Shown one piece after another: positions 6,546-43,846 of a stretch of 64,000 nucleotides of DNA. The translations under genes were made by a program, and so were the position numbers. Source of the DNA: Candidatus Levyibacteriota bacterium (GTDB lineage: Bacteria; Patescibacteriota; Microgenomatia; Levybacterales; UBA12049); contig JACPLF010000007.1 in the NCBI GenBank assembly GCA_016186645.1, forward strand, positions 126,651-190,650, in the 5' to 3' direction. The stretch's first letter is position 1. Every line of letters begins with the position of its first letter. The notes under the pieces are model-generated. The model saw only the letters and a list, made by a program, of their open reading frames with translations. It was not told where the DNA came from and searched no databases.

Positions 6546-7858
6546 AAAATCAATTACTTAATAAACGCATCCCCACCATCTTTGTTGTTGGGTTAATATT
6601 ATTAGGCATAGTCTTAACAACGCTTATTGTAAGAATGCAGACAAATCTCAAGAGCAATGCATCAAATTCGGAAGAACCGAAAAATGTAAAGATTACAAAT
6701 CTATCAGATAAATCTTTTACCATAACTTACCAAACGCAAGCGCTCACCACTGGGTCTGTAAGTTACGGCAACAGTAAACAGCTGGGAAATACAGAAGTGG
6801 AAGATCTTAATCCTAAAAATATTCACAGTATCAGTATACAAAAACTTGATCCTTCAACGAGATATTATCTTGTTGTAATTTCTGGTCAAAACACCTTTTT
6901 AAATAATGGCTCCCCCTTTGAGATTTCAACAGGACCTAATATCTCTTCTCCTTCTGCAGTACAGACAGCTATAAAAGGAAAGGTTCTTTTACCTGATGGG
7001 AAAGCACCTACGCAAGCACTTGTATATTTAAGCTCAGATAGTTCGCAGGTTTTGTCTACAACTGTCCAAAAAGATGGGGAATTTAGTTTTTCTCTAAAAG
7101 AACTTCGGACAAATAACCTTTCTTCATACTTTGGATTCAACGAGAATACGGTTTTTGAACTTTTGGCTGTAGATAATTCCTTAAAATCAAAAGTCTCATT
7201 TTCTTTAAATGAGACAGGTTCACTTCCCACAATTACATTGTCCAATGATTATGATTTTACTAAAGATTTTGTATCAGATGCTTCAAGTTCTGCGCAAGTC
7301 GGTTTCCCCTCTACGGCAGTCAGTTCTGAAAATTTGAAACCAGAGATATTAACTCCAAAAAAAGATCAGTCTTTCACCGATCAAAAACCGCAATTTCGCG
7401 GAACAAGTTTGCCAAATGAAGATGTGGAAATAGTAATTCATTCTGATGAAAATATACAAACTCAAGTAACAGCAGACAGTAATGGCAACTGGACATATCG
7501 TCCTCCCAATAATCTTTCTCCGGGACCTCATACGATAACAGTTAAAACTCGTGATTCATCCGGCATATTAACAACCATAATGCAGTCTTTTATTGTATTC
7601 GCACAGGGTTCCCAAGTATCAGAATCTGCTACCCCTTCCGCTGCTCCCACTCAACAGATCACGCCAACTTTGATCCCTACACTCACCCCAACACCCTTTC
7701 CATCCCCAACAATTACTCCTACTCCGTTACCAGTCTTTGTAGAGACCAAGGGTGGTTTGCCGCCAACAGGAGATTCTTCAATCCTGTTAATTATGGGAGG
7801 GGTTGTTAGTACAATTTTTGGGATCGCATTATTCCTGCTAACACGCACCGCCTTATGA
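6542..7858 (+). CDS. LPXTG-anchored surface protein with Ig-like/FN3-like beta domains
   Basis: Signal/TM at N-terminus; C-terminal ...TKGGLPPTGDSSILLIMGGVVSTIFGIALFLLTRTAL is LPPTG + TM + basic tail; PT-rich linker. Confidence 0.55.
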   Translation: MKNQLLNKRIPTIFVVGLILLGIVLTTLIVRMQTNLKSNASNSEEPKNVKITNLSDKSFTITYQTQALTTGSVSYGNSKQLGNTEVEDLNPKNIHSISIQKLDPSTRYYLVVISGQNTFLNNGSPFEISTGPNISSPSAVQTAIKGKVLLPDGKAPTQALVYLSSDSSQVLSTTVQKDGEFSFSLKELRTNNLSSYFGFNENTVFELLAVDNSLKSKVSFSLNETGSLPTITLSNDYDFTKDFVSDASSSAQVGFPSTAVSSENLKPEILTPKKDQSFTDQKPQFRGTSLPNEDVEIVIHSDENIQTQVTADSNGNWTYRPPNNLSPGPHTITVKTRDSSGILTTIMQSFIVFAQGSQVSESATPSAAPTQQITPTLIPTLTPTPFPSPTITPTPLPVFVETKGGLPPTGDSSILLIMGGVVSTIFGIALFLLTRTAL

Positions 7859-31014: not shown

Positions 31015-32667
31015 ATGAATGACAATCTCGCACAACAACTTAAAGCCGTCATCAAAGGTGATATTTTATCAGATGAAAAAACACTTACCGAGTATAGTCA
31101 TGATGCAAGTCTTTTTGAAGTAAAACCTCAAGTAGTTGTAAATCCAAAAGATGTATGTGACTTAAAAGCATTAGTAAAATTTGTCAGTGAAAATAAGAAA
31201 AATAATCCTTCTTTCTCTTTAACTGCAAGATCCGGCGGAACAGATATGGGCGGAGGGGCAATAAACGATTCTATTGTTGTTGCTTTTCAAAAATACTTTA
31301 ATCATATGAAACCTATAAATAACAATATTGCCAGCGTAGAGCCCGGTGTATTTTATAGAGAATTTGAAGAGCAAACTCTAAAACAGGGTCTTATTTTTCC
31401 ATCTTATCCTGCATCTAAGGAAATCTGTTGCCTGGGAGGAATTGTAAATAATAATGCCGGAGGAGAAAAATCACTTAAGTATGGAACAACAGGACAGTAT
31501 GTTAAAAGAGTAAGGGTAGTTCTTTCCGATGGCAACGAATACGAGTTCAAACCCCTTTTTGAAAATGAATTAAATGAAAAAATGAAACAGGAAAATTTTG
31601 AAGGAGAAATATATAGAAAAATGTATAGACTTATTATTGATAATTATGCCGAAATTATAAAAGCCAAACCTGATGTATCCAAAAACTCCGCAGGATATTA
31701 TTTATGGAATGTGTGGGACAAAGAAAAACGAATTTTCGATTTAACAAAGTTATGGGTTGGCGCTCAAGGAACATTGGGCTTACTTGTTGAGGCAGACATT
31801 CAACTTGTGCCTATTCGCAAACACCGCGACATGATGATTATTTTTTTACATGACTTGTCCCACCTAAGTCAGATTGTTAAAGAAGTCTTATCTTTTAATC
31901 CTGAAAGTTTTGAAGCATATGATGATAGTACTTTAAAGCTTGCGCTAAGATTTTTCCCCGAATTTGCTAAATTATTAGGAACAAAAGGAATTATTCAAAC
32001 AGCCCTTAGTTTTCTCCCGGAATTTTTTATGATCATGTTTGGAGGTTTGCCTAAATTAGTTCTTCAGGTTGATTTTACCGGAGACAATATTGAAGACTTG
32101 CAGAACAAAATCAAAAAACTTAAAGAAAGATTAAAACCTCTTCATCTGCAAATAAGAATTGCTCAAGAAAATCAGGAAGAAAAATATTGGGCAATAAGAC
32201 GCGAAAGCTTTAACTTGCTTCGTAAAAAAGTACGCAATAAACACACAGCTCCTTTTATAGATGACTTTATTGTTAAGCCGGAATATTTATCAAAAATTTT
32301 GCCGCAGGTAGTAAAGATTATCAAAAAACATCCGGAATTTATGTATACAATTGCAGGGCACGTTGGAGATGGGAATTTCCATATTATACCACTGGTTGAT
32401 ATTGCTAATCCTAATGTAAGAAAAAATATTCCAATTATTGCAGATCAAATTTACGATTTGGTTATTAAATATAAGGGCTCTATAACAGGAGAACATAACG
32501 ACGGACTTATTCGCACTCCCTATCTAAAACGAATGTATGGTCAAAAAATAATTTCTCTTTTTGAAGAGACCAAAAACGTTTTTGATTCCCAGAACATATT
32601 TAACCCGCGAAAAAAAGTCTTTGGAGATATCAATTTTGCAATGAACCACATCCGACAAAATTGGTAA
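31015..32667 (+). CDS. FAD-binding oxidoreductase (GlcD/D-lactate dehydrogenase-like, PCMH-type FAD domain)
   Basis: ARSGGTDMGGGA FAD-binding motif; 550 aa. Confidence 0.7.
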   Translation: MNDNLAQQLKAVIKGDILSDEKTLTEYSHDASLFEVKPQVVVNPKDVCDLKALVKFVSENKKNNPSFSLTARSGGTDMGGGAINDSIVVAFQKYFNHMKPINNNIASVEPGVFYREFEEQTLKQGLIFPSYPASKEICCLGGIVNNNAGGEKSLKYGTTGQYVKRVRVVLSDGNEYEFKPLFENELNEKMKQENFEGEIYRKMYRLIIDNYAEIIKAKPDVSKNSAGYYLWNVWDKEKRIFDLTKLWVGAQGTLGLLVEADIQLVPIRKHRDMMIIFLHDLSHLSQIVKEVLSFNPESFEAYDDSTLKLALRFFPEFAKLLGTKGIIQTALSFLPEFFMIMFGGLPKLVLQVDFTGDNIEDLQNKIKKLKERLKPLHLQIRIAQENQEEKYWAIRRESFNLLRKKVRNKHTAPFIDDFIVKPEYLSKILPQVVKIIKKHPEFMYTIAGHVGDGNFHIIPLVDIANPNVRKNIPIIADQIYDLVIKYKGSITGEHNDGLIRTPYLKRMYGQKIISLFEETKNVFDSQNIFNPRKKVFGDINFAMNHIRQNW

Positions 32668-32670
32668 ATT

Positions 32671-33222
32671 ATGGGAACTGTAACTTTAGGCGGAGGGCCT
32701 GCCCGCTATGCCACGGCAACCCTGGCAGGCGGGTGTTTCTGGTGCACAGAGGCTTTGTTCAAACGATTAAAAGGAGTTTTGTCTGTTGTTTCAGGATACA
32801 GCGGAGGGGAAACGGATAATCCATCTTATGACAAAGTCTCTCAGGGTACCACAGGACATGCTGAAGCGATCCAGATTGAGTTTGATCCGTCTATAATTTC
32901 TTATGAAAAGATTCTTAAGGTTTTTTGGGCTACTCACGACCCAACCACTTTAAATCGGCAAGGAGCTGACGTTGGCACACAATACAGATCTGTTATTTTC
33001 TATCATAATGAAAAACAAAAAGAACTAGCTGAGAAATCCAAACAGCCTTCTTTTGTAACCCAAATTCTGCCATTTGATAAGTTTTATAAAGCAGAAGATT
33101 ACCACCAAAATTTCTATGACAAAAATAAATCATATCCCTATTGTCAGATTGTGATAAATCCAAAAATCCAAAAACTCTTGGAACAATTTAAAAAGGACGT
33201 AAAAGAAGATGCAAATAATTAA
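32671..33222 (+). CDS. msrA: peptide methionine sulfoxide reductase MsrA
   Basis: ATLAGGCFWCTEALF catalytic motif. Confidence 0.85.
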   Translation: MGTVTLGGGPARYATATLAGGCFWCTEALFKRLKGVLSVVSGYSGGETDNPSYDKVSQGTTGHAEAIQIEFDPSIISYEKILKVFWATHDPTTLNRQGADVGTQYRSVIFYHNEKQKELAEKSKQPSFVTQILPFDKFYKAEDYHQNFYDKNKSYPYCQIVINPKIQKLLEQFKKDVKEDANN

Positions 33223-33934: not shown

Positions 33935-34573
33935 TTAATTTCTCTTTAAATGTTCTGGTTCTGTTGTTCCTCTTCGTTTTGCGTATAAAAGATAAGGAAT
34001 TATGCTTAATAAATTTGTAGTTGCTGCCAGATAAAATAAAAACGTAAAGCCATAACTACTAGCAACAAAACCGCCAATGGTTGCAGACATTGCCATTCCC
34101 ATAAAAACAAATCCGTCGTAAATACTCCACTCCGTAACTTCTTTATTTTTATCTAGATGCATAGAAAACAAAGAATTTTTTGCAGGGGTGGCAATTCCCA
34201 GTCCCATTCCAATTACGCTATAGAAAATAAATATCGAAGTAACGCTGGTCGTCATAGCAAATCCTAAATAACCGATACTAATAAGAATAATTCCGGCAAT
34301 AGATATTATGAATTTTTTCATTTCCTTTGATTTGGATAAATATCGGCCGCTAATCAATTCAAAAATAACTCTAACAATCAAATAGCAGCTAAAGGAAGAG
34401 GCGGCAATTTCTGTACTGCCCCCCGGTATTTTGGTAGCTGCAAAAATGGCAAAGATTGGAATAATCGCGTTCCAAGAAGACCAAAGAAATATCTCAGAGA
34501 TTATAAATGCTTTAACGACTCCATTCATGTGGAAATCTGAAGGTTTTCTCCCAATAAAAATTTCTTTTATCAT
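33935..34573 (-). CDS. integral membrane protein (6 TM, transporter-like fragment)
   Basis: 212 aa, hydrophobic throughout. Confidence 0.35.
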   Translation of the reverse strand: MIKEIFIGRKPSDFHMNGVVKAFIISEIFLWSSWNAIIPIFAIFAATKIPGGSTEIAASSFSCYLIVRVIFELISGRYLSKSKEMKKFIISIAGIILISIGYLGFAMTTSVTSIFIFYSVIGMGLGIATPAKNSLFSMHLDKNKEVTEWSIYDGFVFMGMAMSATIGGFVASSYGFTFLFYLAATTNLLSIIPYLLYAKRRGTTEPEHLKRN

Positions 34574-34636: not shown

Positions 34637-35788
34637 GTGAATTCTTATCACAAGCTCCTACGTTCAATTGGACTTATCATAGTATTAATAATAGTAGGGA
34701 CTATTTTAACTAAGTATGCTCCTATAAAAACTGCTACTATCCCCATATCCGTAACTACTCAGGATGTTCCGGAAATGGCAGATATTTTAGATCCTAGTAA
34801 TCAAGAAAAAAGATTAAAAGCAGCAAGAAAATTAGTAGAAAGAGTTGATGTCGAACAGGCTTTGGAGATTTTGGAACACTCTAGCCTACCGCATACCGGA
34901 GAAGGTCATTTGGTTGTACATCAAATTGGATTTTATGCTTACAAAAAATATGGGGTGGATTCAATTCTAAAATGCAAAGATTACTTTCTTTATGCTTGCT
35001 ATCATGGGACAATAATTGAAGCAGCGTCCAACGAGGGTTTTGAAGCGATTAAAAAAATGACGGATAAATGTAAAGCATCTCCTGTCAGATATTTCCAGTG
35101 CGTTCATGCTGCGGGCCATTCAATTCTCGCCATGTGGAATTATGATATGCCCAAAGCATTAGAAACTTGCGATTCGATTTATGAAAAAGAAACGGAATTT
35201 CCAGAGGCCTTATCATCTTGTCATAATGGCTCTTTTATGGAAAACCTTTTCGGAGTACATGATTGGGGCAGTGGCAAAGAACCCGTAAGAGATTGGCTGT
35301 CTGATGATCCGTATTTTCCCTGCAACTATTTTGGAGAAAAATATCAAAGGGGATGTTGGCTCAACCAAGCAGCTAGGATTTATCAGATGAACAAAGGAGA
35401 CATGGTTAAAACTTCTCAAATTTGCCAGGAAGCTGGCAATTCAGAATACGTGGCCTGGTGTATGGACAATGTAGCAAGACAAATTCATCCATTAACTCTG
35501 GGAGATCCTGCCAAATCTTTTGAACTTTGTCAGCAAGAAGGAGTCGATTGGTATGATAATTGCCTGGTAGTAAATGCCGGATCATTTTATTCGGTTGGAG
35601 GACGCGACCAGGCAATATTTATCTGTCAAAATGTACCCCCGCATTTAAAGAATGAATGCTACCAAAGAGTAATTGGGCAAATTGTTTCTGACCCAATTGA
35701 TGTCGGACAAAAACAAGCTCTTTGTCAAAAACTTGAGCAGCCGTTCAATAATCATTGCTTCGCAGGCCTGACCCCTGTAAATTTTTAA
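34637..35788 (+). CDS. membrane-anchored extracytoplasmic Cys-paired repeat protein (paralog of the repeats in 39605..42115)
   Basis: N-terminal TM anchor; about 18 Cys in pairs; motifs CYHGTIIEAAS, CVHAAGHSILAMW, PYFPCNYFGEKYQRGCW, shared with the downstream 836-aa protein. Confidence 0.5.
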   Translation: MNSYHKLLRSIGLIIVLIIVGTILTKYAPIKTATIPISVTTQDVPEMADILDPSNQEKRLKAARKLVERVDVEQALEILEHSSLPHTGEGHLVVHQIGFYAYKKYGVDSILKCKDYFLYACYHGTIIEAASNEGFEAIKKMTDKCKASPVRYFQCVHAAGHSILAMWNYDMPKALETCDSIYEKETEFPEALSSCHNGSFMENLFGVHDWGSGKEPVRDWLSDDPYFPCNYFGEKYQRGCWLNQAARIYQMNKGDMVKTSQICQEAGNSEYVAWCMDNVARQIHPLTLGDPAKSFELCQQEGVDWYDNCLVVNAGSFYSVGGRDQAIFICQNVPPHLKNECYQRVIGQIVSDPIDVGQKQALCQKLEQPFNNHCFAGLTPVNF

Positions 35789-35798
35789 GGTTAATATT

Positions 35799-36446
35799 AT
35801 GGAACCAGAAATCCAGAAATTATTGCATTCGTTTTTTGACAAATTTGAGTTGAAATTATTTGACAAAGGAAAAACGATTATAGGACCCACGAATGATAAG
35901 ATATTTTTTTTGACCAAGGGAGTAGTAAAAATGCTTGGCCTTTCAAAAAAAGGAAAGGATCTAACTCTAAATATATATAAGGCATATTCATTATTTCCTA
36001 TATCTTTGATTTTTAATATGCGAAATAAATATATATTTAAATCATTAACGGAAACGCAGGGATATTTCGCCCCTAAAAAAAAATTAGATCTGTTCATCAG
36101 CAAAAATCCAATTGTGCTTTTCGATCTATTAAAAAGAGTTTATCAGGGTTTAGACGGATTTTTTATGCTTTGGGAAGCTCTGCTTTCAGGAAATTCTCTC
36201 TATAAAGTATTGACTCAGTTAATTATTTACGCGAAGCGGTTTGGTCAAAGAAATCACAACACAATTACTTTTGATTGGCATCTTACCCACGGTCAATTAG
36301 CTTCTCAAACAGGCCTTGCCCGAGAATCAGTCACCAGGCAAATTAAAAAACTTCAGAATAAAGGCTTGATTGGTTACTCCGGCAAAAAGATATTTATTTA
36401 CGACCTTTCTAAATTGGAAAAAGAACATTCTTCCTTGTCTAAATGA
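35799..36446 (+). CDS. Crp/Fnr-family transcriptional regulator
   Basis: cNMP-binding-like beta-barrel region then C-terminal HTH (LTHGQLASQTGLARESVTRQIKKLQNKGLI). Confidence 0.7.
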   Translation: MEPEIQKLLHSFFDKFELKLFDKGKTIIGPTNDKIFFLTKGVVKMLGLSKKGKDLTLNIYKAYSLFPISLIFNMRNKYIFKSLTETQGYFAPKKKLDLFISKNPIVLFDLLKRVYQGLDGFFMLWEALLSGNSLYKVLTQLIIYAKRFGQRNHNTITFDWHLTHGQLASQTGLARESVTRQIKKLQNKGLIGYSGKKIFIYDLSKLEKEHSSLSK

Positions 36447-36506: not shown

Positions 36507-36785
36507 ATGGATAATCAAAATAAAATAACATCTATCTTATTTCTTCTTAAAAAAAAGAAAATACTTATTGGAGTACCATTGCTTCTGCTTTCTGTCGGAG
36601 TAATTTATGTTGGGCTAGTGCGATTTGGAGTTATCAAAGATCCTTTCCCTCTTCCTAATATACCTTTTCTTCAAACAGTCCCACAAGTTTCTATAAAAAC
36701 AGAATACAAAAATCCTTTTGATAAAAAAACCCAGTACGTAAATCCATTTGACACTTATAAAAATCCTTTTGTAATTGCAAAATAA
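36507..36785 (+). CDS. small membrane protein with C-terminal NPFD repeats, coupled to the giant protein
   Basis: 92 aa; one TM; C-terminus KNPFDKKTQYVNPFDTYKNPF; TAATG overlap with the next gene. Confidence 0.35.
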   Translation: MDNQNKITSILFLLKKKKILIGVPLLLLSVGVIYVGLVRFGVIKDPFPLPNIPFLQTVPQVSIKTEYKNPFDKKTQYVNPFDTYKNPFVIAK

Positions 36786-39553
36786 TGATAATAAGTAAAA
36801 TTTTAACATTGAACCCTATTAAGACATTACTTCTGGCATTGGCTGCGATGTTTTTATTATTTCTCGTAACAACTTCTGTTTTTTCACAAAGCCCAACAAT
36901 CCAACCAACAACTGCTACAGGACCGTCTCTTAACCTTGCTTTTCCCATAGAAGAATTGGGCGCATGCAAGAGTCTGGAAGAATGTAGCAATTATTGTCAG
37001 GATCCTGTTCACCAAAACAGTTGTACTAATTTTGCAAAGAAAAATGGATTCTATCAGGATGACCAAACAGCCTATGGAGATGATAAATTTTATCAGGATG
37101 TAAAAGAGGAATTAGGATGCGATACGCACGAATCTTGTTTTAACTTTTGTTCAGAGCCTGCGAATTTTGACACATGCGAATCCTATGCCAAAAGAAATGA
37201 AATACCAGGCGGCTATGTCGGAGAACCGGATAAGCCTGAATATTTAACCATTGCTAAGCAAGTTTTAGGTTGTGATTCACCTGTAAGCTGCTCAAATTTC
37301 TGCGATGATCCCGCAAATGCTGATAAATGTTCTAGCTTTGCTGATCAAGTAGGACTTTTAGGCGGAAATACTCAAGAAGGTCCTGGTGGATGTCAGACTC
37401 CCGGCACTTGCGGAGCATATTGTTCTGATCCTGCAAATTATGTGGAATGTTCTAAATTTGCTCCGGGAGGGGGTAATTTTGCAGGACCAGGCGGGTGTAA
37501 TAGTGAAGCAACATGTCGAAGTTATTGCGATCAAAATCCTGCTAATTGCCGAAGTTATGCTCCCGGCTCAAGTGGGGCATATGGGACTTTTAATTGTGTC
37601 GAAGGTCAGACTCATGGACCAGGCGGACTTTGTACCAATGTGAACGTTATGGCTTTGGCTGCTGCCTGCGTTGGAGCTGGTAAATTTTGGGATGGAACTT
37701 CCTGTCAGGATACCGCTCCTGTAGGTATATCTCCAGAACTGCCAAGTGCGCATTTTGAACAAAGACCGGAAATGGGCAATTGCTCAACTCCTGGTCAATG
37801 TTATGATTATTGTAAGGATAATCTTGTGAATGGTGCGAGCGTTTGTCCGGGATTCGATGCTACAGCATCCCGTCCAACCGACAGCTATACACCATATCTA
37901 TATTATACTCCCGGAACTGAGGTTAAATTTGAACCAAAGCCGGAGATGGGTAACTGTGATTCTCCTGGCGCTTGTTATGACTATTGTAAAGAAAATCCCG
38001 ATAAATGCGAAGGATTTGATCCTAAGGCTCCAGTACCAATAGACATTTGGATTCCAAATACTTACTACACTCCTCCTACAGATGGTATCTATTCTACTCC
38101 GCCAACAACCAATTTCTACACAACGCCAATGTACTACACTCCGCCAGTCGGCTCTACTTATACTACTCCTCAATACTACACGCCTGGCACATATTCTACT
38201 CCAAGTTACTATACACCGCCTATAGGATCGAACTATACTACGCCTAACTACTATACTCCTTGGACTAATTATGCGACACCAACCGGAGAGTATCCGACTC
38301 CGACTTATTCAACACCAACTTACTACACTCCTCCTGGTGGATCTAATTACACAACGCCTTACTATTACACTCCCCCTCATTACACAACGCCTTACTATTA
38401 CACTCCCGGCCAAGGTGGCTATGCGTCTAATTACACAACTCCTCCTGCCTATTCAACTCCTCCGCCATATGTAACTCCTCAGTATTACACGCCTTACACC
38501 GGCGGCGGTTATACAACTCCTGTTTACTATACACCGCCTGTTTACACAACCCCAACTTACTACACTCCTCCTGCAGGCTCGAACTACACCAGCCCAAGTT
38601 ATTACACGCCTCCTCCTCCTTATACAACACCAAATTACTATACTCCTGGCACTTACCCAACACCTCCTACTTATACATCTCCTACGGCTTATACGACGCC
38701 TAACTATCCAACTCCTCCATTAGGCAGTAACTATACCTCCCCTAGCTATTATTCGCCAGCAAGCTATCCAACACCAACTTATTACACACCAGGTTTTTAC
38801 CCAACACCTTATTATTACACGCCTTATTCAACACCCTCCTATCACACTCCTCCTGAAGGATCAACCTATACCAGCCCGACTTACTACACACCATATTCAA
38901 CGCCAAATTACTTTACGCCAACGTACTATTCACCTTCTTACTACACGCCTGGCGGAACCTACACAAGTCCTTATTATACTCCTGGAAGCGGTTACACATC
39001 CCCAACCTCAAATTATACAACTCCATCAACTAGCTATACTTCTCCATACTACAGTCCTTACGCAAGTCCATCATATTACACACCCTCAGACCCGAATTAT
39101 ACAACGCCGTCTTATCCAACGCCTTATTCCTATCCTACTCCGGGATCAACAACTTCTTATCCATACCCGACTCCTGGAACAGGATATTCTTACCCAACGC
39201 CAAGCGGCTATTATTACCCAACCCCATCAGACACTAGTTATCCTTCTCCATATACCGGCTATGCTTATCCAACGCCTGGAACTAGTTATTCTTACCCTTC
39301 GCCAACATACGGCACGCCTTCGGGAAGCTATTATTACCCAACACCCGGATCCGGATCTTATGGCACGCCATCATACGGCACCCCTGAATATCACACACCA
39401 AGCTATGGAACACCTTCAGAAAGCTACGGAACACCGAGTTATGGAACGCCATCGTATGGCACTCCTTCTGATTACCCAACCCCTCCCTTGGGAGTTTCCA
39501 CCTTCAATCCCGGATTATTACAGAATATCTGGAGCTTCCTTATCGGCAGATAA
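36785..39553 (+). CDS. giant secreted protein: seven 4-Cys modules followed by about 500 aa of Tyr/Thr/Pro-rich repeats
   Basis: Signal/TM at N-terminus; repeats of G-C-x4-C-x2-[YF]-C-x2-P-x-N-x2-3-C-x2-[FY]-A; then YYTPP / GSNYT[TS]P repeats; hydrophobic C-terminus. Confidence 0.6.
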   Translation: MIISKILTLNPIKTLLLALAAMFLLFLVTTSVFSQSPTIQPTTATGPSLNLAFPIEELGACKSLEECSNYCQDPVHQNSCTNFAKKNGFYQDDQTAYGDDKFYQDVKEELGCDTHESCFNFCSEPANFDTCESYAKRNEIPGGYVGEPDKPEYLTIAKQVLGCDSPVSCSNFCDDPANADKCSSFADQVGLLGGNTQEGPGGCQTPGTCGAYCSDPANYVECSKFAPGGGNFAGPGGCNSEATCRSYCDQNPANCRSYAPGSSGAYGTFNCVEGQTHGPGGLCTNVNVMALAAACVGAGKFWDGTSCQDTAPVGISPELPSAHFEQRPEMGNCSTPGQCYDYCKDNLVNGASVCPGFDATASRPTDSYTPYLYYTPGTEVKFEPKPEMGNCDSPGACYDYCKENPDKCEGFDPKAPVPIDIWIPNTYYTPPTDGIYSTPPTTNFYTTPMYYTPPVGSTYTTPQYYTPGTYSTPSYYTPPIGSNYTTPNYYTPWTNYATPTGEYPTPTYSTPTYYTPPGGSNYTTPYYYTPPHYTTPYYYTPGQGGYASNYTTPPAYSTPPPYVTPQYYTPYTGGGYTTPVYYTPPVYTTPTYYTPPAGSNYTSPSYYTPPPPYTTPNYYTPGTYPTPPTYTSPTAYTTPNYPTPPLGSNYTSPSYYSPASYPTPTYYTPGFYPTPYYYTPYSTPSYHTPPEGSTYTSPTYYTPYSTPNYFTPTYYSPSYYTPGGTYTSPYYTPGSGYTSPTSNYTTPSTSYTSPYYSPYASPSYYTPSDPNYTTPSYPTPYSYPTPGSTTSYPYPTPGTGYSYPTPSGYYYPTPSDTSYPSPYTGYAYPTPGTSYSYPSPTYGTPSGSYYYPTPGSGSYGTPSYGTPEYHTPSYGTPSESYGTPSYGTPSYGTPSDYPTPPLGVSTFNPGLLQNIWSFLIGR

Positions 39554-39604: not shown

Positions 39605-42115
39605 ATGTTCAAATTCTTCGCGTTACTCTTATTTCTCATTTTTCATTTTCCTGCCTCGCCGCCAGGCGGGTCTTTTTTCATTTCTCCTGTTTCTGCTCAT
39701 TCAGAAGTTGCGGTTATAGAAATGGTGCCTTATGGCTTTGTTCCTTCTGAAACAACTATTGATGTAAATTCAAGTGTAATTTTCATCAATAAAGATAGTC
39801 AACCAAGATGGCCTGCCAGCAATGTCCATCCGACTCATAATATATATCCCGAATTTGATCCAAAAAAACCAATTGAGCCCGGAGAATCATGGGCATTCAA
39901 GCCTAAAAGAATAGGAGAATGGAAATTTCACGATCATAATTTCCCCCATATGAGAGGAGTTTTAACTGTCGTTGATGAAGAAGGTTTTACTTCAGAGGAA
40001 AAAATAGAGTCCCCTTCTTTTGTTACTAAGTTTAAAAATGCAATTAACAATTTCTTTAATCAGATTAAAAACTTATTCGCTAAAAAAGCATTAAATCAAC
40101 AGGTACAATTACCTGATAAAGAAGGGTTCAAAAAACTATCTTATGATGCTCAATCTAAAATACTAGAAAAAATTGCGAGAAACAATGGTGCTTCAAAAGC
40201 TTGGGAATATGTGAAAGATGTTTTCAAAGGAGAAGGAGGATCTTCCGGCAACATTCATGATTTGGCGCATTTATCAGGTCTTTTGATATATGAAAAGAAT
40301 GGCTTTGAAGGAATTAAAGACTGCACTAGTAATTTTGCTTTTGGCTGTTATCATGGTTTTTTAGATACTGCTTTTGCCAAAAATTTGGACCATCTTTTGG
40401 ATGCAGAGAATGCTTGTTTGAAATTAGGCCCTACTAATTCCGGACCTGTTGCAAGCTGCATACACGGAATTGGACATGGAGTTGCTTCTTTTTATTCAAC
40501 GCAGGATTTGGAAAAATCTCTTGTTACCTGCAGGAAATTAAACCAAGGCAATGAATACTGTTTTGATGGAGTATTTATGGAATTTGTCCGCTCCGCGCCC
40601 GATTCATTTTTTAAAAGTAACGATCCCTACTACCCTTGCAACAGCTTGGAGGAAAAATATGGATATTCTTATTCATCTGCCTGCGGAAGAAATCAATCTT
40701 CCCTTTTAATGAGTAGATTTAATATGGGATTTGACGAAGTGGTTGGAATTTGTCTTTCTTCAACATCAAAACCTTTTAAAGAAAGTTGTTTCGACGCTCT
40801 AGGATTTTCTCTTGCTTCTTCTGGAGATGTTAACCAAATAATAGTAGGGTGTCAAAAGATGCAGATATCTGAATATATTAATAAGTGCGCAAAAGCTGCC
40901 GCAGGAGAGTTAGTTTTTCAGGAAATACCCGGATGGCCGGAAAAATCAAAAGAAGTTTGTAATGCATTTGAAAAAAGCGAAGAGTGTTTGCAAAACGTAG
41001 ATAGACTTATTAAGGAATATAACCTTCAAGTCCAAATCAACTTTACCCCAAAAGAACTCAATGAAGATATTAATTTATATGTAAGAAGCCAGATGAAAAA
41101 ATGTTATGAAACGGATGGCAGGGACGGATGCTACAAAGCCGTTGCTGACATATTGTATAGTCAGTTTGGTTTAGCCAAAACTCTTAATGTTTTTAAAGAA
41201 AACGAAGGATATGTAGAAATTTATGCAAGATGTCATGAGACAACTCATTATCTTTCCCGGCTGGAATATGAGAAGCAAAAGAGTATTGCCAAAGTTTATG
41301 CTCAATGTGATTCAACATGTCATGGAGGATGTTACCACGGAACACTTGAGGCATATCTTAAAGAAAAGACAAATGAGACTGGATTTAATCTAGTGAGTCG
41401 ATTTGCTAAAGTTTGCGGAAAACAAAGCGATTATCAGAAGCCTATCGAGTTTAATGAATGTCTTCATGGCATGGGACACGCAGCAATGTTTGTCACAGAT
41501 ATGGAACTTAAACAATCTTTAAAGCTTTGCGATACTATTGCTGATCAAGCGCATAAAGAAAGATGTTATACCGGAGTATTTATGGAAAATTCCTCATCCT
41601 CTACTTCTTTTGATCATGCAAGTATATACATTAAAAAAGATGATCCATTTTATCCATGCAATTCTTTAGAGGAAAAATATTTATCTTTGTGCTGGCAGTA
41701 TCAAAGTTCGTATTTTTCCATTATCAGTCACCAGGATTGGAAAAAAGTAGCAAGTCTTTGCCTGCAAATTCCTAATCAGTATCAAGATCGATGCTTTAGG
41801 ACTATCGGAACAAACCAAGTTGGTTTTACTCAATCTTTAGAAACCATGAAAAAAGATTGTGATCTTATGCCCTCTGAAAATTTTAAAGACATTTGTATTG
41901 CAGGCGTTGTTTCCTCTCTTTCCTATCGTTTTGTCGGAGACATGCGAAAAATGATTGACTTTTGCTCTCTTGTCTCTTCACAAAATAGAGAAAGCTGTTA
42001 CAAACAAATTGGTAATGGAGTTTCTGATTGGGATAGCAACAAAGATGTGGCAAAAAACCAATGTCAAAAAATTCCCGACCCCCAAGGCCAATCTTGGTGC
42101 CTGAGCGCAATATGA
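39605..42115 (+). CDS. secreted protein: N-terminal cupredoxin-like domain (Cys ligand replaced) plus two tandem Cys-paired repeat domains
   Basis: Signal peptide; EWKFHDHNFPHMRGVLTVVDE aligns to the amicyanin/pseudoazurin loop Y-x-C-T-P-H-P-F-M-R-G-K-V-V-V-E with Cys replaced; then two repeat units with CYHGF, CIHGIGHG, YPCNSLEEKY motifs. Confidence 0.55.
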   Translation: MFKFFALLLFLIFHFPASPPGGSFFISPVSAHSEVAVIEMVPYGFVPSETTIDVNSSVIFINKDSQPRWPASNVHPTHNIYPEFDPKKPIEPGESWAFKPKRIGEWKFHDHNFPHMRGVLTVVDEEGFTSEEKIESPSFVTKFKNAINNFFNQIKNLFAKKALNQQVQLPDKEGFKKLSYDAQSKILEKIARNNGASKAWEYVKDVFKGEGGSSGNIHDLAHLSGLLIYEKNGFEGIKDCTSNFAFGCYHGFLDTAFAKNLDHLLDAENACLKLGPTNSGPVASCIHGIGHGVASFYSTQDLEKSLVTCRKLNQGNEYCFDGVFMEFVRSAPDSFFKSNDPYYPCNSLEEKYGYSYSSACGRNQSSLLMSRFNMGFDEVVGICLSSTSKPFKESCFDALGFSLASSGDVNQIIVGCQKMQISEYINKCAKAAAGELVFQEIPGWPEKSKEVCNAFEKSEECLQNVDRLIKEYNLQVQINFTPKELNEDINLYVRSQMKKCYETDGRDGCYKAVADILYSQFGLAKTLNVFKENEGYVEIYARCHETTHYLSRLEYEKQKSIAKVYAQCDSTCHGGCYHGTLEAYLKEKTNETGFNLVSRFAKVCGKQSDYQKPIEFNECLHGMGHAAMFVTDMELKQSLKLCDTIADQAHKERCYTGVFMENSSSSTSFDHASIYIKKDDPFYPCNSLEEKYLSLCWQYQSSYFSIISHQDWKKVASLCLQIPNQYQDRCFRTIGTNQVGFTQSLETMKKDCDLMPSENFKDICIAGVVSSLSYRFVGDMRKMIDFCSLVSSQNRESCYKQIGNGVSDWDSNKDVAKNQCQKIPDPQGQSWCLSAI

Positions 42116-42145: not shown

Positions 42146-42454
42146 CTATTTAAATTGAACCTGGAGAGTAACATCCAAAGCGGCTGCTAGTCTTTTGAGC
42201 AAAGAAATAGAAGGGCTTGTATTGCCTTGCTCAACCCTGGAAATAACTGATTGAGTAGTATTCATTTTTTTAGCCAACTCTTTTTGAGTTATTTTATTTT
42301 TAATTCTGGCACGGATAATAGCCTTAGCAATTTCAAACTCAGGTTGAGATTCCTCGTAGAGCTTTTTAAACTCAGAGTCTTTTAGCATTTCTTTTTTTAG
42401 CACACTCCAGTCTTTCATAGATGTATTGTATCGCAAATTTGCGATATCTGTCAA
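42146..42454 (-). CDS. higA: HigA-type antitoxin, XRE-family HTH
   Basis: KITQKELAKKMNTTQSVISRVEQGNTSPSISLLKRLAAALDV (HTH_XRE); 4-nt overlap with the upstream toxin gene. Confidence 0.75.
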   Translation of the reverse strand: MTDIANLRYNTSMKDWSVLKKEMLKDSEFKKLYEESQPEFEIAKAIIRARIKNKITQKELAKKMNTTQSVISRVEQGNTSPSISLLKRLAAALDVTLQVQFK

Positions 42455-42810
42455 CTCCCCAATTTTCTTGATTGGTATTCCTTTAGTCTCTCCTCAGCTA
42501 TTTTTATCTCTTTCGGAGGAGTCTTTTGTTTTTTCTTTTTAAACCCATGTAGTAGTAGGAATATTTTCCCAGTTATGGTGATATAGAAAATTCTGATGCT
42601 ATCTGTTCCCAATATACGAAGTTCCCAAAGCGAGGTACCAACCAGTTTTTTAACATGAGGATATGCTCCTTCCAATCCAAATTCCTCTAAGAGATCAAGA
42701 GTTCTGGAAACCTTTAACCGTGTCTTCTTTTCTAAGGATTTAATAAATTCCTCAACTGGTATGTCGCCCCTGAGAGATTCATAAGCCTTAACTTTCCATT
42801 TATCATCCAT
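42451..42810 (-). CDS. higB: HigB-like toxin (RelE/ParE superfamily, phage Gp49-like family)
   Basis: LWELRILGTDSIRIFYITITGKIFLLLHGFKKKKQKTPPKEIKIAEERLKEY matches the Gp49-like pattern (ELR...R..Y......LLHGFKKKTQKTP..EI..A); toxin-first order typical of higBA. Confidence 0.7.
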   Translation of the reverse strand: MDDKWKVKAYESLRGDIPVEEFIKSLEKKTRLKVSRTLDLLEEFGLEGAYPHVKKLVGTSLWELRILGTDSIRIFYITITGKIFLLLHGFKKKKQKTPPKEIKIAEERLKEYQSRKLGS

Positions 42811-42910: not shown

Positions 42911-43846
42911 TTAGTGGATTAGAAATTCATCAAGATATTTGTTCAATTCTTCATTAGGTTGCGAAAAAATGCCTACTAAATCTTCATCAAATATTTTCTG
43001 TAAAGATCTTCTAGCAATATCTTCTGCATCTCGTATTATTTCATTTGCACTCAAAGGATTACTCAAGACTCTTCTAGGAAGACTCGCTCCATGAACTGCA
43101 GATGATCTCAGCTCGTAAATAGTCTTAATCTTCTGAATTATAGATTTTTTTTCCGTTATACTCTGGCCAAGAAAAGCGGCACACCGCATTCTTAATGAAT
43201 ATCCTACTTCTGATTCCGAGGTATTAAATAGAGATTCCAGGGTAATTGCAAAAGGAACAGTTCTGAGTTTTGCATAATGAGTTAAATACCCTAGCTGAAA
43301 AAAATTAAAAGCATTAAGAACTCGATTGTATGAACCCTGATATTTTGCAAATAATTCTGACACACAATAGTAATATCTCTGAATTTTCTTTTCTTCCCCA
43401 GCCTGAAAATGTGATGATCCAAGAGGCTCACCATAGATCAAAAAAATTGCATTTGTTTTCTGACTTGCACCTTCGGGACTCAGATTTCCATTATGATCTA
43501 AACTAAATAAGAATGTTGAACTTGCTGCTCTAGTTGGACGCACAACACGTAAGCTTTCAATTATATGGTGAATTTTCTTCTGAGCTTTATCTGAATCTTC
43601 TACAGATGAATCGAATTCATATACGGCATAAAATCTACAATTTTTTAACTCATCTATCTCATATTTAGCATAAATGTCTTGAAATGAGTCAACTATTATT
43701 GCGATTAAGTCGTTTAGTTTGTCATCTTTTCTCCTCAAGCTCAATGCATCCTCTAATTTTATTTCATCAGGAAGACGATCCCTTGGATCATCATAAAAGA
43801 AGTGTATCGGGGCAATAATTCTAAGTTTGCTCATATTTTCAAACAA
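42911..43846 (-). CDS. hypothetical protein with C-terminal Rx4HG (HEPN-like) motif; possible abortive-infection-type RNase
   Basis: 311 aa, soluble; ...IYELRSSAVHGASL contains R-x4-H-G, the HEPN catalytic signature; adjacent to the TA pair. Confidence 0.35.
   Translation of the reverse strand: MFENMSKLRIIAPIHFFYDDPRDRLPDEIKLEDALSLRRKDDKLNDLIAIIVDSFQDIYAKYEIDELKNCRFYAVYEFDSSVEDSDKAQKKIHHIIESLRVVRPTRAASSTFLFSLDHNGNLSPEGASQKTNAIFLIYGEPLGSSHFQAGEEKKIQRYYYCVSELFAKYQGSYNRVLNAFNFFQLGYLTHYAKLRTVPFAITLESLFNTSESEVGYSLRMRCAAFLGQSITEKKSIIQKIKTIYELRSSAVHGASLPRRVLSNPLSANEIIRDAEDIARRSLQKIFDEDLVGIFSQPNEELNKYLDEFLIH

What the first reader, a model, noticed from the sequence alone, without database searches (positions are those of the whole stretch)
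39605..42115. Cupredoxin-like domain with the Cys ligand replaced, fused to two Cys/His-paired repeat domains; paralog at 34637
Residues about 40-125 read like a small blue-copper fold: ...NVHPTHN... then EWKFHDHNFPHMRGVLTVVDE. This aligns with the amicyanin/pseudoazurin loop Y-x-C-T-P-H-P-F-M-R-G-K-V-V-V-E but has His/Asp where the Cys ligand belongs. Two about 270-aa repeats follow, each full of paired Cys and conserved CYHGx, CxHGxGH and P[YF]YPCN[SY][LF]EEKY motifs. The same repeat forms the whole 383-aa protein at 34637..35788. Three copies of an unrecognised extracytoplasmic Cys/His-rich domain around a Crp/Fnr regulator suggest a novel metal- or redox-handling surface system. That is inference.
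Basis: partly seen in the sequence, partly recalled or inferred. Interest (0 to 1): 0.65.

Follow-up and report, generated by a model that had tools for sequence, protein, structure and literature searches.

The report
Asp-for-Cys cupredoxin fused to new His/Cys domain
A secreted protein of a tiny CPR bacterium joins a copper-oxidase-like domain that has lost its key cysteine to two copies of a previously undescribed, disulfide-stapled, histidine-rich helical domain, and this widespread domain family travels with giant tyrosine-rich surface proteins, pointing to an uncharacterised metal-dependent cell-envelope system.

Summary
ORF 39605..42115 (836 aa) encodes a signal peptide, a cupredoxin-fold domain and two ~290-300-aa all-helical Cys/His domains. 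ORF 34637..35788 carries a third copy.

The cupredoxin is not a blue-copper site. Its invariant H-D-H-x-x-P-H aligns with the H-C-H-x-x-P-H motif of ascorbate oxidase, with Asp replacing the type-1 Cys. By textbook numbering the flanking His bind the trinuclear cluster, and they are kept.

The helical domain has no Pfam, NCBIfam or PDB match. It is a disulfide-stapled alpha-solenoid with five near-invariant His plus a Glu on four consecutive helices. It matches 6,210 cluster representatives in CPR bacteria and records labelled DPANN archaea.

The Crp/Fnr gene is an optional insertion. The conserved partners are a small NPF-motif membrane protein and a ~900-aa protein with a long Y-x-[TS]-P repeat tract (132 Tyr). 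This link recurs in distant lineages and as gene fusions.

Best reading (inferred): an extracytoplasmic copper-type metalloprotein module that acts on or assembles the Tyr-rich envelope protein. Metal identity and activity are untested.

The parts
39605..42115 (+). Gene A, 836 aa: signal peptide, cupredoxin variant, linker and two Cys/His helical domains
   Evidence: ORF. At least 388 homologues, with full-length orthologues at 54-84% identity in CPR Microgenomates.
39605..39697 (+). Predicted signal peptide (residues 1-31), ending ...V-S-A | H-S-E
   Evidence: Read from the sequence. The -3/-1 pattern [VI]-x-A is conserved, and His follows in 111/114 orthologues. Cleavage itself was not tested.
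39698..39979 (+). Cupredoxin-fold domain (residues 32-125) lacking the type-1 Cys
   Evidence: AF2 pLDDT 84.6 with 8 strands. Foldseek top hits are all cupredoxins. Subfamily profile against PDB: NirK 1.8e-9, amicyanin 2e-7.
39827..39838 (+). H75-P-T-H78, within the invariant W-P-A-S-N-x-H-P-T-H loop
   Evidence: H75 and H78 are 114/114 in orthologues and 44/45 in distant copies. This part of the model has low confidence (pLDDT about 61).
39929..39949 (+). H109-D110-H111-N-F-P114-H115, an MCO-type H-C-H-x-x-P-H motif with Cys replaced by Asp
   Evidence: Aligns with ascorbate oxidase 495-512 'FHCHIEPH' and 82-107 'YHGHL' (E 6.2e-7). H109 and D110 are 45/45, H111 is 44/45 and H115 is 27/45 in distant copies.
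40217..41074 (+). Cys/His helical domain, copy 1 (about residues 205-490)
   Evidence: Domain HMM E 3e-114. Alignment A3.
41186..42112 (+). Cys/His helical domain, copy 2 (about residues 528-836). Residues 491-836 were modelled.
   Evidence: Domain HMM E 2e-128. AF2 pLDDT 90.7, pTM 0.86, 19 helices. No structural relative.
34637..35788 (+). Gene B, 383 aa: N-terminal TM anchor, linker and one Cys/His domain (residues about 76-378)
   Evidence: 352 homologues, the best 120 at 70-89% identity, all unnamed or 'hypothetical'.
35799..36446 (+). Crp-family regulator, an optional insertion in the cluster
   Evidence: Pfam HTH_Crp_2 at 2.5e-13. Orthologues in 9 loci only, and 0 Cys.
36507..36785 (+). 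Small TM protein (92 aa) with three conserved NPF motifs (YKNPFDKKTQYVNPFDTYKNPF)
   Evidence: Syntenic in L001-L004. Found in 40 of 84 loci. No Pfam family above threshold.
36785..39553 (+). 922-aa secreted protein: about eight 4-Cys modules in the N-terminal ~420 aa, then a ~500-aa Tyr/Thr/Pro-rich tract (132 Tyr, 76 Y-x-[TS]-P motifs)
   Evidence: Syntenic orthologues in L001-L004. It is the only one of 237 window ORFs that passes the Tyr/Pro/Ser-Thr criterion.

Best explanation
Gene A encodes a secreted, disulfide-rich metalloprotein that belongs to a conserved four-gene envelope module: B, a small NPF-motif TM protein, a giant Y-x-[TS]-P-repeat protein, and A.

Shown:
- Residues 32-125 adopt a cupredoxin fold. 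Its invariant residues are H75, H78, H109, D110 and H111, plus H115 in this lineage.
- The H-D-H-x-x-P-H segment aligns with the multicopper-oxidase H-C-H-x-x-P-H motif. Asp stands where the type-1 Cys would be. By textbook numbering the two flanking His bind the trinuclear cluster at a domain interface, and both are retained.
- Each of the three ~300-aa helical domains is an ARM/HEAT-like alpha-solenoid stapled by 7-8 Cys pairs. Each carries five near-invariant His and a Glu on four consecutive helices (H-x3-H, CYHG, C-x-H-x2-G-H, G-x-F-M-E).
- The domain, the cupredoxin variant and Tyr-rich Y-x-[TS]-P proteins co-occur across CPR and records labelled DPANN. In a few proteins they are fused.

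Inferred:
- The cupredoxin binds copper in a non-blue, type-2-like site, possibly completed at an interface with a helical domain or another subunit.
- The His5-Glu cluster of each helical domain is a second metal site.
- The module uses these sites to oxidise tyrosines of the repeat protein, cross-linking them into a surface layer or fibre. The solenoid groove would hold the extended repeat.
- This would parallel laccase or peroxidase cross-linking of Tyr-rich coat and wall proteins.
For: Fold and site:
- cupredoxin fold.
- the His/Asp set is kept in 44-45 of 45 divergent copies, whatever the domain's position in the protein. Met116 is variable.
- one outlier (P0253) lost H75, H78 and H111 together.
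- ascorbate oxidase E 6.2e-7, with HDHxxPH aligned to HCHIEPH. A natural FHDH exists in two-domain laccase 2zwn.
- NirK and laccase domain-1 hits.

Helical domain:
- confident all-alpha model.
- the five His are 99-100% and the Glu 94% conserved in 181 copies.
- Cys columns are gained and lost in pairs (phi 1.0, 0.94, 0.86).

Coupling of the two domain types:
- 42 of the top 150 representatives fuse the same cupredoxin variant to the domain, in N-terminal, internal or C-terminal positions.

Link to the Tyr-rich partner:
- conserved four-gene synteny despite different flanking genes.
- 47 of 84 loci hold a Tyr/Pro/Ser-Thr-rich ORF.
- the window background is 1 of 237 ORFs. In a record labelled Aenigmatarchaeota the Tyr-rich gene lies 18 bp upstream of a Cup-Dom-Dom gene.
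- these partners share only the Y-x-[TS]-P repeats.
- fused tails occur in Methylocystis rosea, P0278 and P0362, against 0 of 1,500 shuffles.

Precedent for non-Cys cupredoxins binding Cu(II): FtrB Asp118/His121 and azurin Cys-to-Asp (PMC11966278).
Against: - No metal, redox or substrate data exist.
- Without the type-1 Cys, fast electron transfer as in true multicopper oxidases is unlikely.
- Only one cupredoxin domain and one H-x-H motif are present.
- The upstream W-P-A-S-N-x-H-P-T-H segment found no PDB match.
- Most family members (108 of the top 150) have the helical domain without any cupredoxin. The domain must therefore function alone.
- About 45% of loci show no Tyr-rich ORF within 6 kb. 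Many of those contigs are truncated, and my composition criterion is ad hoc.
- From general knowledge, CPR bacteria are mostly fermentative and often anoxic, which sits awkwardly with an O2-dependent oxidase.
Confidence: 0.33

Rival explanations
1. Non-catalytic scaffold or adhesin. The disulfide-stapled alpha-solenoid domains bind the extended Y-x-[TS]-P repeats, as armadillo and TPR solenoids bind extended peptides. They would anchor or polymerise the Tyr-rich protein on the cell surface. The His residues and any bound metal would then be structural only.
For: - The only structural neighbours are peptide-binding-type solenoids: designed armadillo and helical-repeat proteins and HEAT proteins.
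- Domain plus repeat-tail fusions would allow head-to-tail assembly.
- Multi-copy giants with up to 10 domains, and fusions to GH3, LRV/HEAT and Laminin_G_3, look like modular surface proteins.
- B is membrane-anchored.
- CPR genomes are known to encode large secreted Cys-rich proteins proposed to act in attachment (PMC4736985).
Against: - Five His plus a Glu conserved at 94-100% across copies that are about 20% identical is far stronger than usual for a binding groove. The i/i+4 spacing on adjacent helices is typical of a metal site.
- The recurrent fusion to a cupredoxin that keeps oxidase-type His ligands is unexplained by pure binding.
Confidence: 0.25
2. Metal acquisition or sequestration module, analogous to EfeO or FtrB. 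The Cys-less Cupredoxin_1-type domain handles or oxidises a metal ion (Cu or Fe). The His-rich helical domains and the conserved N-terminal His capture the ion for uptake or detoxification.
For: - The architecture parallels EfeO: an N-terminal Cup domain plus a helical metal-binding domain. FtrB uses Asp and His for Cu(II) and acts as a ferroxidase (PMC11966278).
- Orthologues are annotated PF13473.
- His immediately follows the predicted cleavage site in 111/114 orthologues and in 17/35 N-terminal copies, but in 0/10 internal copies. N-terminal His proteins are often Cu or Ni binders (PMC12537917).
- The only cultured carrier is a copper-dependent methanotroph.
Against: - No FTR1/EfeU-type permease or EfeB appears among the Pfam-annotated genes of L001-L004.
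- This reading does not explain the conserved linkage and fusions to Tyr-rich repeat proteins.
Confidence: 0.2
3. An ordinary blue-copper (type-1) electron carrier domain tethered to a structural repeat.
For: Cupredoxin fold, with best sequence matches to amicyanin and plastocyanin.
Against: The Cys ligand is Asp in every one of 114 orthologues and 45 distant copies. The axial Met position is variable (M 44, F 17, I 16, L 13, K 10), and the His95-equivalent is Phe.
Confidence: 0.02

Closest known systems
Multicopper oxidase / NirK cupredoxin domains (ascorbate oxidase domain 3, two-domain laccase 2zwn)
   Same: Cupredoxin fold. The segment G-x-W-x-F-H-D-H-x-x-P-H aligns residue-for-residue with ascorbate oxidase 'GVWAFHCHIEPH', and also with the domain-1 'YHGH' motif. 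2zwn contains a natural 'FHDH'.
   Different: A single cupredoxin domain per chain here. Asp replaces the type-1 Cys and there is no conserved axial Met. Only one H-x-H pair is present instead of four. The upstream motif has no PDB match. The partner domain is helical, not a second cupredoxin.
EfeO (Cup-I) and FtrB (Cup-II), Cys-less Cupredoxin_1-type proteins of iron uptake systems
   Same: Extracytoplasmic, Cupredoxin_1-like and lacking Cys. Asp and His are the proposed Cu(II) ligands. EfeO likewise couples the Cup domain to a helical metal-binding domain (PMC11966278).
   Different: No M75/imelysin domain and no FTR1/EfeU or EfeB neighbours. The ligand constellation differs (His4-Asp). The genomic partners are a Tyr-rich repeat protein and an NPF-motif protein.
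Amicyanin / plastocyanin (type-1 blue copper proteins)
   Same: Closest single-domain sequence and structure matches. The strand order and the C-terminal ...P-x-M-R-G-x-V-V-V segment align.
   Different: Cys92 is Asp, His95 is Phe and the Met98 position is not conserved. Extra invariant His residues are present (H78, H109, H111).
Helicobacter cysteine-rich proteins (Hcp) / Sel1-like repeats
   Same: The design principle, recalled from the literature: helical hairpin repeats of about 35 aa, each stapled by a Cys pair, in secreted proteins.
   Different: No Sel1 Pfam hit. Cys spacing is 8-15 residues (mostly 11-12) rather than 7. The N-terminal half carries an invariant His5-Glu cluster that is absent from Hcp.
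Histidine-brace / N-terminal-His metalloproteins (LPMO, CopC, PmoB CuB site, YcnI, 'anglerases')
   Same: His is the predicted first residue of the mature protein, on a beta-sandwich domain. It is conserved in 97% of orthologues (PMC12537917, PMC10952591).
   Different: His-1 is absent from internal and C-terminal copies and from half of the N-terminal copies. From the amicyanin alignment it should lie at the pole opposite the canonical copper site (inference). It is an accessory feature, not the core site.
Oxidative cross-linking of Tyr-rich structural proteins (CotA laccase with the Bacillus spore coat; extensin peroxidases)
   Same: A copper-oxidase-like protein is genetically linked to a very Tyr-rich, Pro/Thr-rich extracellular repeat protein. 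This is an analogy from general knowledge.
   Different: No activity has been shown. The enzyme candidates are not bona fide laccases or peroxidases. The organisms are CPR bacteria and DPANN archaea.

Membership tests
Type-1 blue copper proteins (plastocyanin/azurin/amicyanin) | Greek-key beta-sandwich cupredoxin fold | tested here: met
   AF2 model with 8 strands and pLDDT 84.6. 367 PDB matches at E<=1e-3, and the top 50 are all cupredoxins.
Type-1 blue copper proteins (plastocyanin/azurin/amicyanin) | His...Cys...His...Met ligand set | tested here: not met
   Cys is replaced by Asp110 in 114/114 and 45/45 sequences. The His95-equivalent is Phe113. The Met position is variable.
Pfam Cupredoxin_1 (PF13473) | HMM score at or above the gathering threshold (27 bits) | tested here: inconclusive
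   The window protein scores 19.7 bits, below the cutoff. Relatives with the same variant domain pass: P0249 67.5, P0275 37.8, P0294 32.7 and P0273 29.8 bits. Most orthologues carry a precomputed PF13473 hit.
Multicopper oxidases | Two or more cupredoxin domains per chain, forming an interdomain trinuclear site | tested here: not met
   Only one cupredoxin domain in gene A and in the whole window. Some relatives have two (P0244, P0249, P0269).
Multicopper oxidases | H-C-H-x3-H-x4-M motif containing the type-1 Cys | tested here: not met
   The motif is present as H-D-H-x-x-P-H, aligned to ascorbate oxidase residues 495-512. Cys is replaced and Met is not conserved.
Multicopper oxidases | Four H-x-H motifs supplying eight His to the trinuclear cluster | tested here: not met
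   One H-x-H (H109/H111) plus H-P-T-H (H75/H78). The upstream segment gives no PDB hit.
EfeO / FtrB-type iron-uptake cupredoxins | Cys-less Cupredoxin_1-type domain in an extracytoplasmic protein | tested here: met
   The signal peptide is read from the sequence.
EfeO / FtrB-type iron-uptake cupredoxins | Peptidase_M75/imelysin domain, and linkage to an FTR1/EfeU permease | tested here: not met
Histidine-brace copper proteins (LPMO, CopC, PmoB CuB) | His as residue 1 of the mature protein | tested here: inconclusive
   A|H-S at the predicted signal-peptidase site in 111/114 orthologues. Only 17/35 N-terminal and 0/10 internal copies in the wider family. Cleavage was not tested.
Histidine-brace copper proteins (LPMO, CopC, PmoB CuB) | T-shaped Cu coordination by the His-1 amine and imidazole plus a second His | not testable with these tools
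   No model coordinates or metal modelling were available.
Sel1-like / Hcp cysteine-rich repeats | Match to Sel1 repeat profiles, with Cys pairs 7 residues apart | tested here: not met
   No Pfam hit. Cys-pair spacing is 8-15 residues, mostly 11-12.
Sel1-like / Hcp cysteine-rich repeats | Helical hairpins of about 35 aa, each bridged by a Cys pair | tested here: met
   Predicted helices with Cys at the helix ends. Paired gain and loss of Cys columns. Disulfide chemistry itself is inferred.
ARM/HEAT alpha-solenoids | Significant structural superposition on ARM/HEAT repeats | tested here: inconclusive

The most novel reading that the evidence does not exclude
CPR bacteria and DPANN archaea possess a previously unrecognised class of copper oxidase. 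A single multicopper-oxidase-like cupredoxin half-site (H-P-x-H ... H-D-H) would pair with the His5-Glu cluster of a disulfide-stapled helical domain to build an interdomain copper centre. That centre would oxidatively cross-link giant Y-x-T-P-repeat proteins into an extensin-like cell envelope or fibre.
Probability: 0.12. Interest if true: 0.9.

Novelty: new variant of a known kind. Interest (0 to 1): 0.68.

Why it matters
CPR bacteria and DPANN archaea make up a large share of microbial diversity, yet most of their surface proteins have no assigned function. This work defines three things.

1. A very large unannotated extracellular domain family (6,210 cluster representatives). It has a confident predicted fold, a diagnostic His5-Glu plus Cys-pair signature, and no solved relative.
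2. A natural cupredoxin subfamily that keeps oxidase-type His ligands but replaces the type-1 Cys with Asp. This parallels the engineered azurin Cys-to-Asp variants.
3. A conserved genetic link of both to giant tyrosine-rich repeat proteins.

If the module is a metal-dependent cross-linking or assembly system, it would explain how these ultra-small, host-attached cells build or anchor part of their envelope. It would also add a new architecture to copper enzymology. The hypothesis is directly testable with recombinant proteins and short Y-x-T-P peptides. One cultured carrier, Methylocystis rosea, offers a possible genetic handle.

Tried and rejected
- PDB sequence searches with the full-length profile and the domain-only profile at E<=10 found nothing for the helical domain.
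- A short profile of the W-P-A-S-N-x-H-P-T-H segment gave no PDB hit. Its resemblance to the MCO 'H-P-x-H-x-H-G-H' motif therefore remains a recollection, not a result.
- Promoter and terminator scans were at chance level.
- Cluster look-ups returned no names or taxonomy.
- Literature searches found no description of the domain or the cluster.

Considered and rejected:
- Classic blue-copper carrier: the ligands are absent.
- Crp/Fnr-centred regulon: the gene is optional and has no Cys.
- Heme c attachment via C-x3-C-H in repeat 2: those Cys (profile columns 15 and 42) occur only as a perfectly co-varying pair, which fits an extra disulfide.
- Sel1/Hcp membership: no profile match and different Cys spacing.
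- His-32 as part of the canonical copper site: it is absent from internal copies, and the amicyanin alignment places it at the opposite pole.
Full report
OBSERVATION.

The window is low-GC (about 35%). Its best matches are Candidatus Levybacteria and other Microgenomates MAGs. ORF A (39605..42115, 836 aa) and ORF B (34637..35788, 383 aa) exist as described.

A begins with a hydrophobic leader ending V-S-A|H-S-E. Residues 18-122 give a sub-threshold Pfam Cupredoxin_1 hit (E 8.8e-4, 19.7 bits against a 27-bit cutoff). The rest of A, and all of B, match nothing in Pfam or NCBIfam.

BLASTP aligns B to A 214-434 (E 8e-18) and to A 544-826 (E 3e-24) at 25-27% identity. An HMM built from the three copies finds exactly three domains and one cupredoxin in all six frames of the window.

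THE CUPREDOXIN DOMAIN.

An AF2 model of residues 32-135, built with 59 homologues, is an eight-strand beta-sandwich (pLDDT 84.6, pTM 0.76). Foldseek against the PDB returns only cupredoxins at the top: B. anthracis Cupredoxin_1 4hcf, plastocyanins, amicyanin and the Nitrosopumilus purple cupredoxin, at E 3e-7 to 1e-5 and TM about 0.6-0.73.

D110 falls on Cys92, F113 on His95 and M116 on Met98.

- In 114 full-length orthologues H75, H78, H109, D110, H111 and H115 are invariant, along with W69, Y81, D85 and W96. Position 116 is M/F/I/L/K.
- In 45 much more divergent copies, taken from 42 of the top 150 domain-containing cluster representatives, W69, H75, H78, D85 and H111 are kept in 44/45. H109 and D110 are kept in 45/45, and H115 in only 27/45. 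This holds whether the domain is N-terminal (35 copies) or internal/C-terminal (10 copies).
- The single outlier, P0253, has lost H75, H78 and H111 together, all to Tyr. That suggests these three act as one site.

A profile of this subfamily hits NirK (1.8e-9), amicyanin (2e-7) and a series of laccase domain-1 segments. A 29-residue profile of the C-terminal half hits ascorbate oxidase at E 6.2e-7, in two places:
- 'AINPGETFFYNFTVDNPGTFFYHGHL' (residues 82-107);
- 'FVADNPGVWAFHCHIEPH' (residues 495-512).

The second aligns with the query consensus F-t-f-k-k-a-G-s-W-k-F-H-D-H-L-f-P-h. The two-domain laccase 2zwn even contains 'FIFHDH'.

By the textbook numbering of ascorbate oxidase (my own knowledge, not tested here), His506 and His508 bind the trinuclear cluster, and Cys507 and His512 bind the type-1 copper. 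The domain is thus best described as a multicopper-oxidase-type cupredoxin in which the type-1 Cys is replaced by Asp while the flanking cluster-binding His are retained.

Non-Cys cupredoxins that still bind Cu(II) are known: FtrB (Asp118/His121), the EfeO Cup domain and azurin Cys-to-Asp (PMC11966278). A short profile of the upstream W-P-A-S-N-x-H-P-T-H loop found nothing in the PDB. Its likeness to the oxidase 'H-P-x-H' motif is therefore only a lead.

THE N-TERMINAL HIS.

His32 follows the conserved -3/-1 signal-peptidase pattern in 111/114 orthologues. An [AGS]|H occurs in 17/35 N-terminal copies of the wider family, one of them (P0258) only loosely. It occurs in 0/10 internal copies.

N-terminal His residues are recognised metal chelators (PMC12537917, PMC10952591). 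From the amicyanin alignment, however, His32 precedes strand 1 at the pole opposite the canonical site (inference). It is an accessory feature and not part of the invariant core.

THE CYS/HIS DOMAIN.

The second refutation test ("a known annotated family") therefore also fails.

The three window copies and their orthologues are only 19-24% identical between paralogous copies, yet they share 30 invariant columns:
- H-x3-H;
- C...C-Y-H-G;
- C...C-x-H-x2-G-H;
- C...C-x2-G-x-F-M-E;
- D-P-x2-P-C, a Tyr and C-x3-Q;
- three to four further Cys pairs.

Mapped on the model, the His/Glu residues lie on four consecutive helices. Each Cys pair links the end of one helix to the first turn of the next, with spacing mostly 11-12 residues and a period of about 35 aa.

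In 181 near-complete copies from divergent proteins the five His are 99-100% conserved and the Glu 94%. The variable Cys columns are gained or lost strictly in pairs:
- columns 15/42: 75 both, 106 neither, 0 mixed;
- columns 38/46: phi 0.94;
- columns 283/294: phi 0.86.

That is what disulfide partners would do. I conclude that the paired Cys are structural staples of an alpha-solenoid. The His5-Glu cluster is the candidate functional, probably metal-binding, site. The spatial clustering itself could not be verified because model coordinates are not exposed.

DISTRIBUTION.

The domain profile matches 6,210 cluster representatives at E<=1e-3 among 1.84 billion. Of these, 4,577 are at <=1e-10 and 1,245 at <=1e-30. 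A single protein can carry up to ten copies.

Architectures include:
- single-domain B-like proteins;
- Cup plus one domain (about 450-530 aa);
- Cup plus two domains (A-like);
- Cup-domain-Cup-domain;
- fusions to GH3 with LRV/HEAT, and to Laminin_G_3.

In GTDB species genomes the domain occurs in Microgenomates, Parcubacteria and Saccharibacteria. It also occurs in records labelled as DPANN archaea (Aenigmatarchaeota, Woesearchaeota). One cultured bacterium carries it, the methanotroph Methylocystis rosea SV97. Many of these CPR-like MAG contigs carry 'uncultured Gammaproteobacteria' titles, which I take to be mislabels.

GENOMIC CONTEXT.

Orthologues at 55-80% identity sit in clusters B - small protein (77-97 aa) - ~860-930-aa protein - A. 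The flanking genes differ between loci. The Crp gene is present only in L003. Across the fetched loci, Crp orthologues follow B in 9 (8 distinct contigs). The protein has no Cys, so it is not an FNR-type sensor.

The small protein has a TM helix and a conserved YKNPFDKKTQYVNPFDTYKNPF tail. The large protein has a leader and about eight 4-Cys modules. It then has a ~500-aa Tyr/Thr/Pro tract with 132 Tyr and 76 Y-x-[TS]-P motifs.

The 84 loci include a few contigs fetched twice. Among them, 55 carry the cupredoxin variant, 47 carry a Tyr/Pro/Ser-Thr-rich ORF and 40 carry an NPF protein within about 6 kb. In the 64-kb window only the cluster's own gene passes that composition filter, 1 of 237 ORFs.

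In distant loci at 27-44% identity the Tyr-rich partners are not homologous at their N-termini. They share only YPTP, YGTP and YETP-type repeats. In the Aenigmatarchaeota-labelled chromosome a 1,143-aa, 149-Tyr gene lies 18 bp upstream of a Cup-Dom-Dom gene.

The Methylocystis protein and two representatives (P0278, P0362) carry such repeats fused to the domain's C-terminus. None of 1,500 shuffles do. This is independent, Rosetta-stone-type evidence of a functional link.

INTERPRETATION.

Shown:
- a secreted protein with a Cys-less, oxidase-type cupredoxin;
- three copies of a new disulfide-stapled solenoid domain with an invariant His5-Glu signature;
- a conserved four-gene envelope module, and a cross-phylum association with Y-x-[TS]-P repeat proteins.

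Inferred: copper (or another metal) binding at both kinds of site, and action on the Tyr-rich partner.

I rank the readings as follows:
1. Metal-dependent oxidation or cross-linking of the repeat protein: 0.33.
2. Non-catalytic binding or scaffolding of the repeats: 0.25.
3. EfeO-like metal capture: 0.20.

A classical blue-copper carrier is excluded.

The main weaknesses are the absence of any metal or activity data and the lack of coordinates. Many family members also lack the cupredoxin or a detectable Tyr-rich neighbour. The largely anaerobic lifestyle of CPR bacteria (general knowledge) is a further difficulty.

NOVELTY.

Searches of the held literature found only generic remarks on secreted Cys-rich CPR proteins. 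The cupredoxin is a new natural variant of a known kind. The helical domain is an undescribed family, and the module has no described counterpart.

I file the whole as 'new variant of a known kind' (extracytoplasmic cupredoxin-containing metalloproteins such as EfeO and the MCOs). I give 0.12 probability that it is a new class of copper oxidase system.

Noticed in passing
window 36507..36785 (+): A 92-aa TM protein with a triple NPF motif (YKNPFDKKTQYVNPFDTYKNPF). It is conserved between B and the Tyr-rich gene in the orthologous clusters and has no family assignment.
   Followed up: partly
window 36785..39553 (+): The 922-aa protein carries about eight repeats of a 4-Cys module (for example LGCDTHESCFNFCSEPANFDTCESYAKRN) ahead of the Tyr/Thr/Pro tract. 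The tract explains the local GC rise to 0.44 and the GC skew of -0.40. At DNA level it shows only weak 18-bp tandem repeats.
   Followed up: partly
L081 5926..7197 (Methylocystis rosea SV97, NZ_KB889963.1): This is the only cultured-organism homologue found (35% identity). It has a fused C-terminal TPYPTPYETPY... tail and a small secreted Cys-rich ORF downstream (7445..7693). It looks like a horizontal acquisition in a copper-dependent methanotroph.
   Followed up: partly
P0253 (781 aa representative): Its cupredoxin copy has H75, H78 and H111 all replaced by Tyr while H109 and D110 are kept. This coordinated loss hints at which residues form one site.
   Followed up: no
window 41229..41231 and 41316..41318 (C543 and C572 of gene A, repeat 2): An extra Cys pair, specific to repeat-2-type copies, co-varies perfectly: 75 copies have both and 106 have neither. 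It probably forms a non-adjacent disulfide next to the His cluster. It creates a C-x3-C-H string that could be mistaken for a heme c motif.
   Followed up: partly
P0241 (3,580 aa): A giant protein with ten copies of the Cys/His domain, plus a GH3 glycosidase domain and LRV/HEAT repeats, encoded on an 831-kb contig.
   Followed up: no
window 42146..42810 (-): A toxin-antitoxin-like pair immediately downstream of gene A: Gp49/DUF891 (HigB-like; E 4e-22) and an HTH_3 protein (E 5e-16).
   Followed up: partly
window 33935..34573 (-): A half-length MFS protein of 212 aa that matches only positions 3-176 of the 347-position MFS_1 model. It lies upstream of B, and a 208-aa counterpart sits at the same place in L001.
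   Followed up: no
window 31015..33222 (+): An FAD-linked oxidase (550 aa) and MsrA (peptide methionine sulfoxide reductase) lie just upstream of the cluster. MsrA is also adjacent in L001 but not in L002-L004.
   Followed up: no
L005, L007, L010 and many other loci: Many TPA MAG records titled 'uncultured Gammaproteobacteria bacterium' or 'uncultured Methanosarcinales archaeon' carry proteins 80-88% identical to Microgenomates orthologues. The record titles look taxonomically unreliable.
   Followed up: no
window 42911..43846 (-): A 311-aa ORF with no Pfam match.
   Followed up: no
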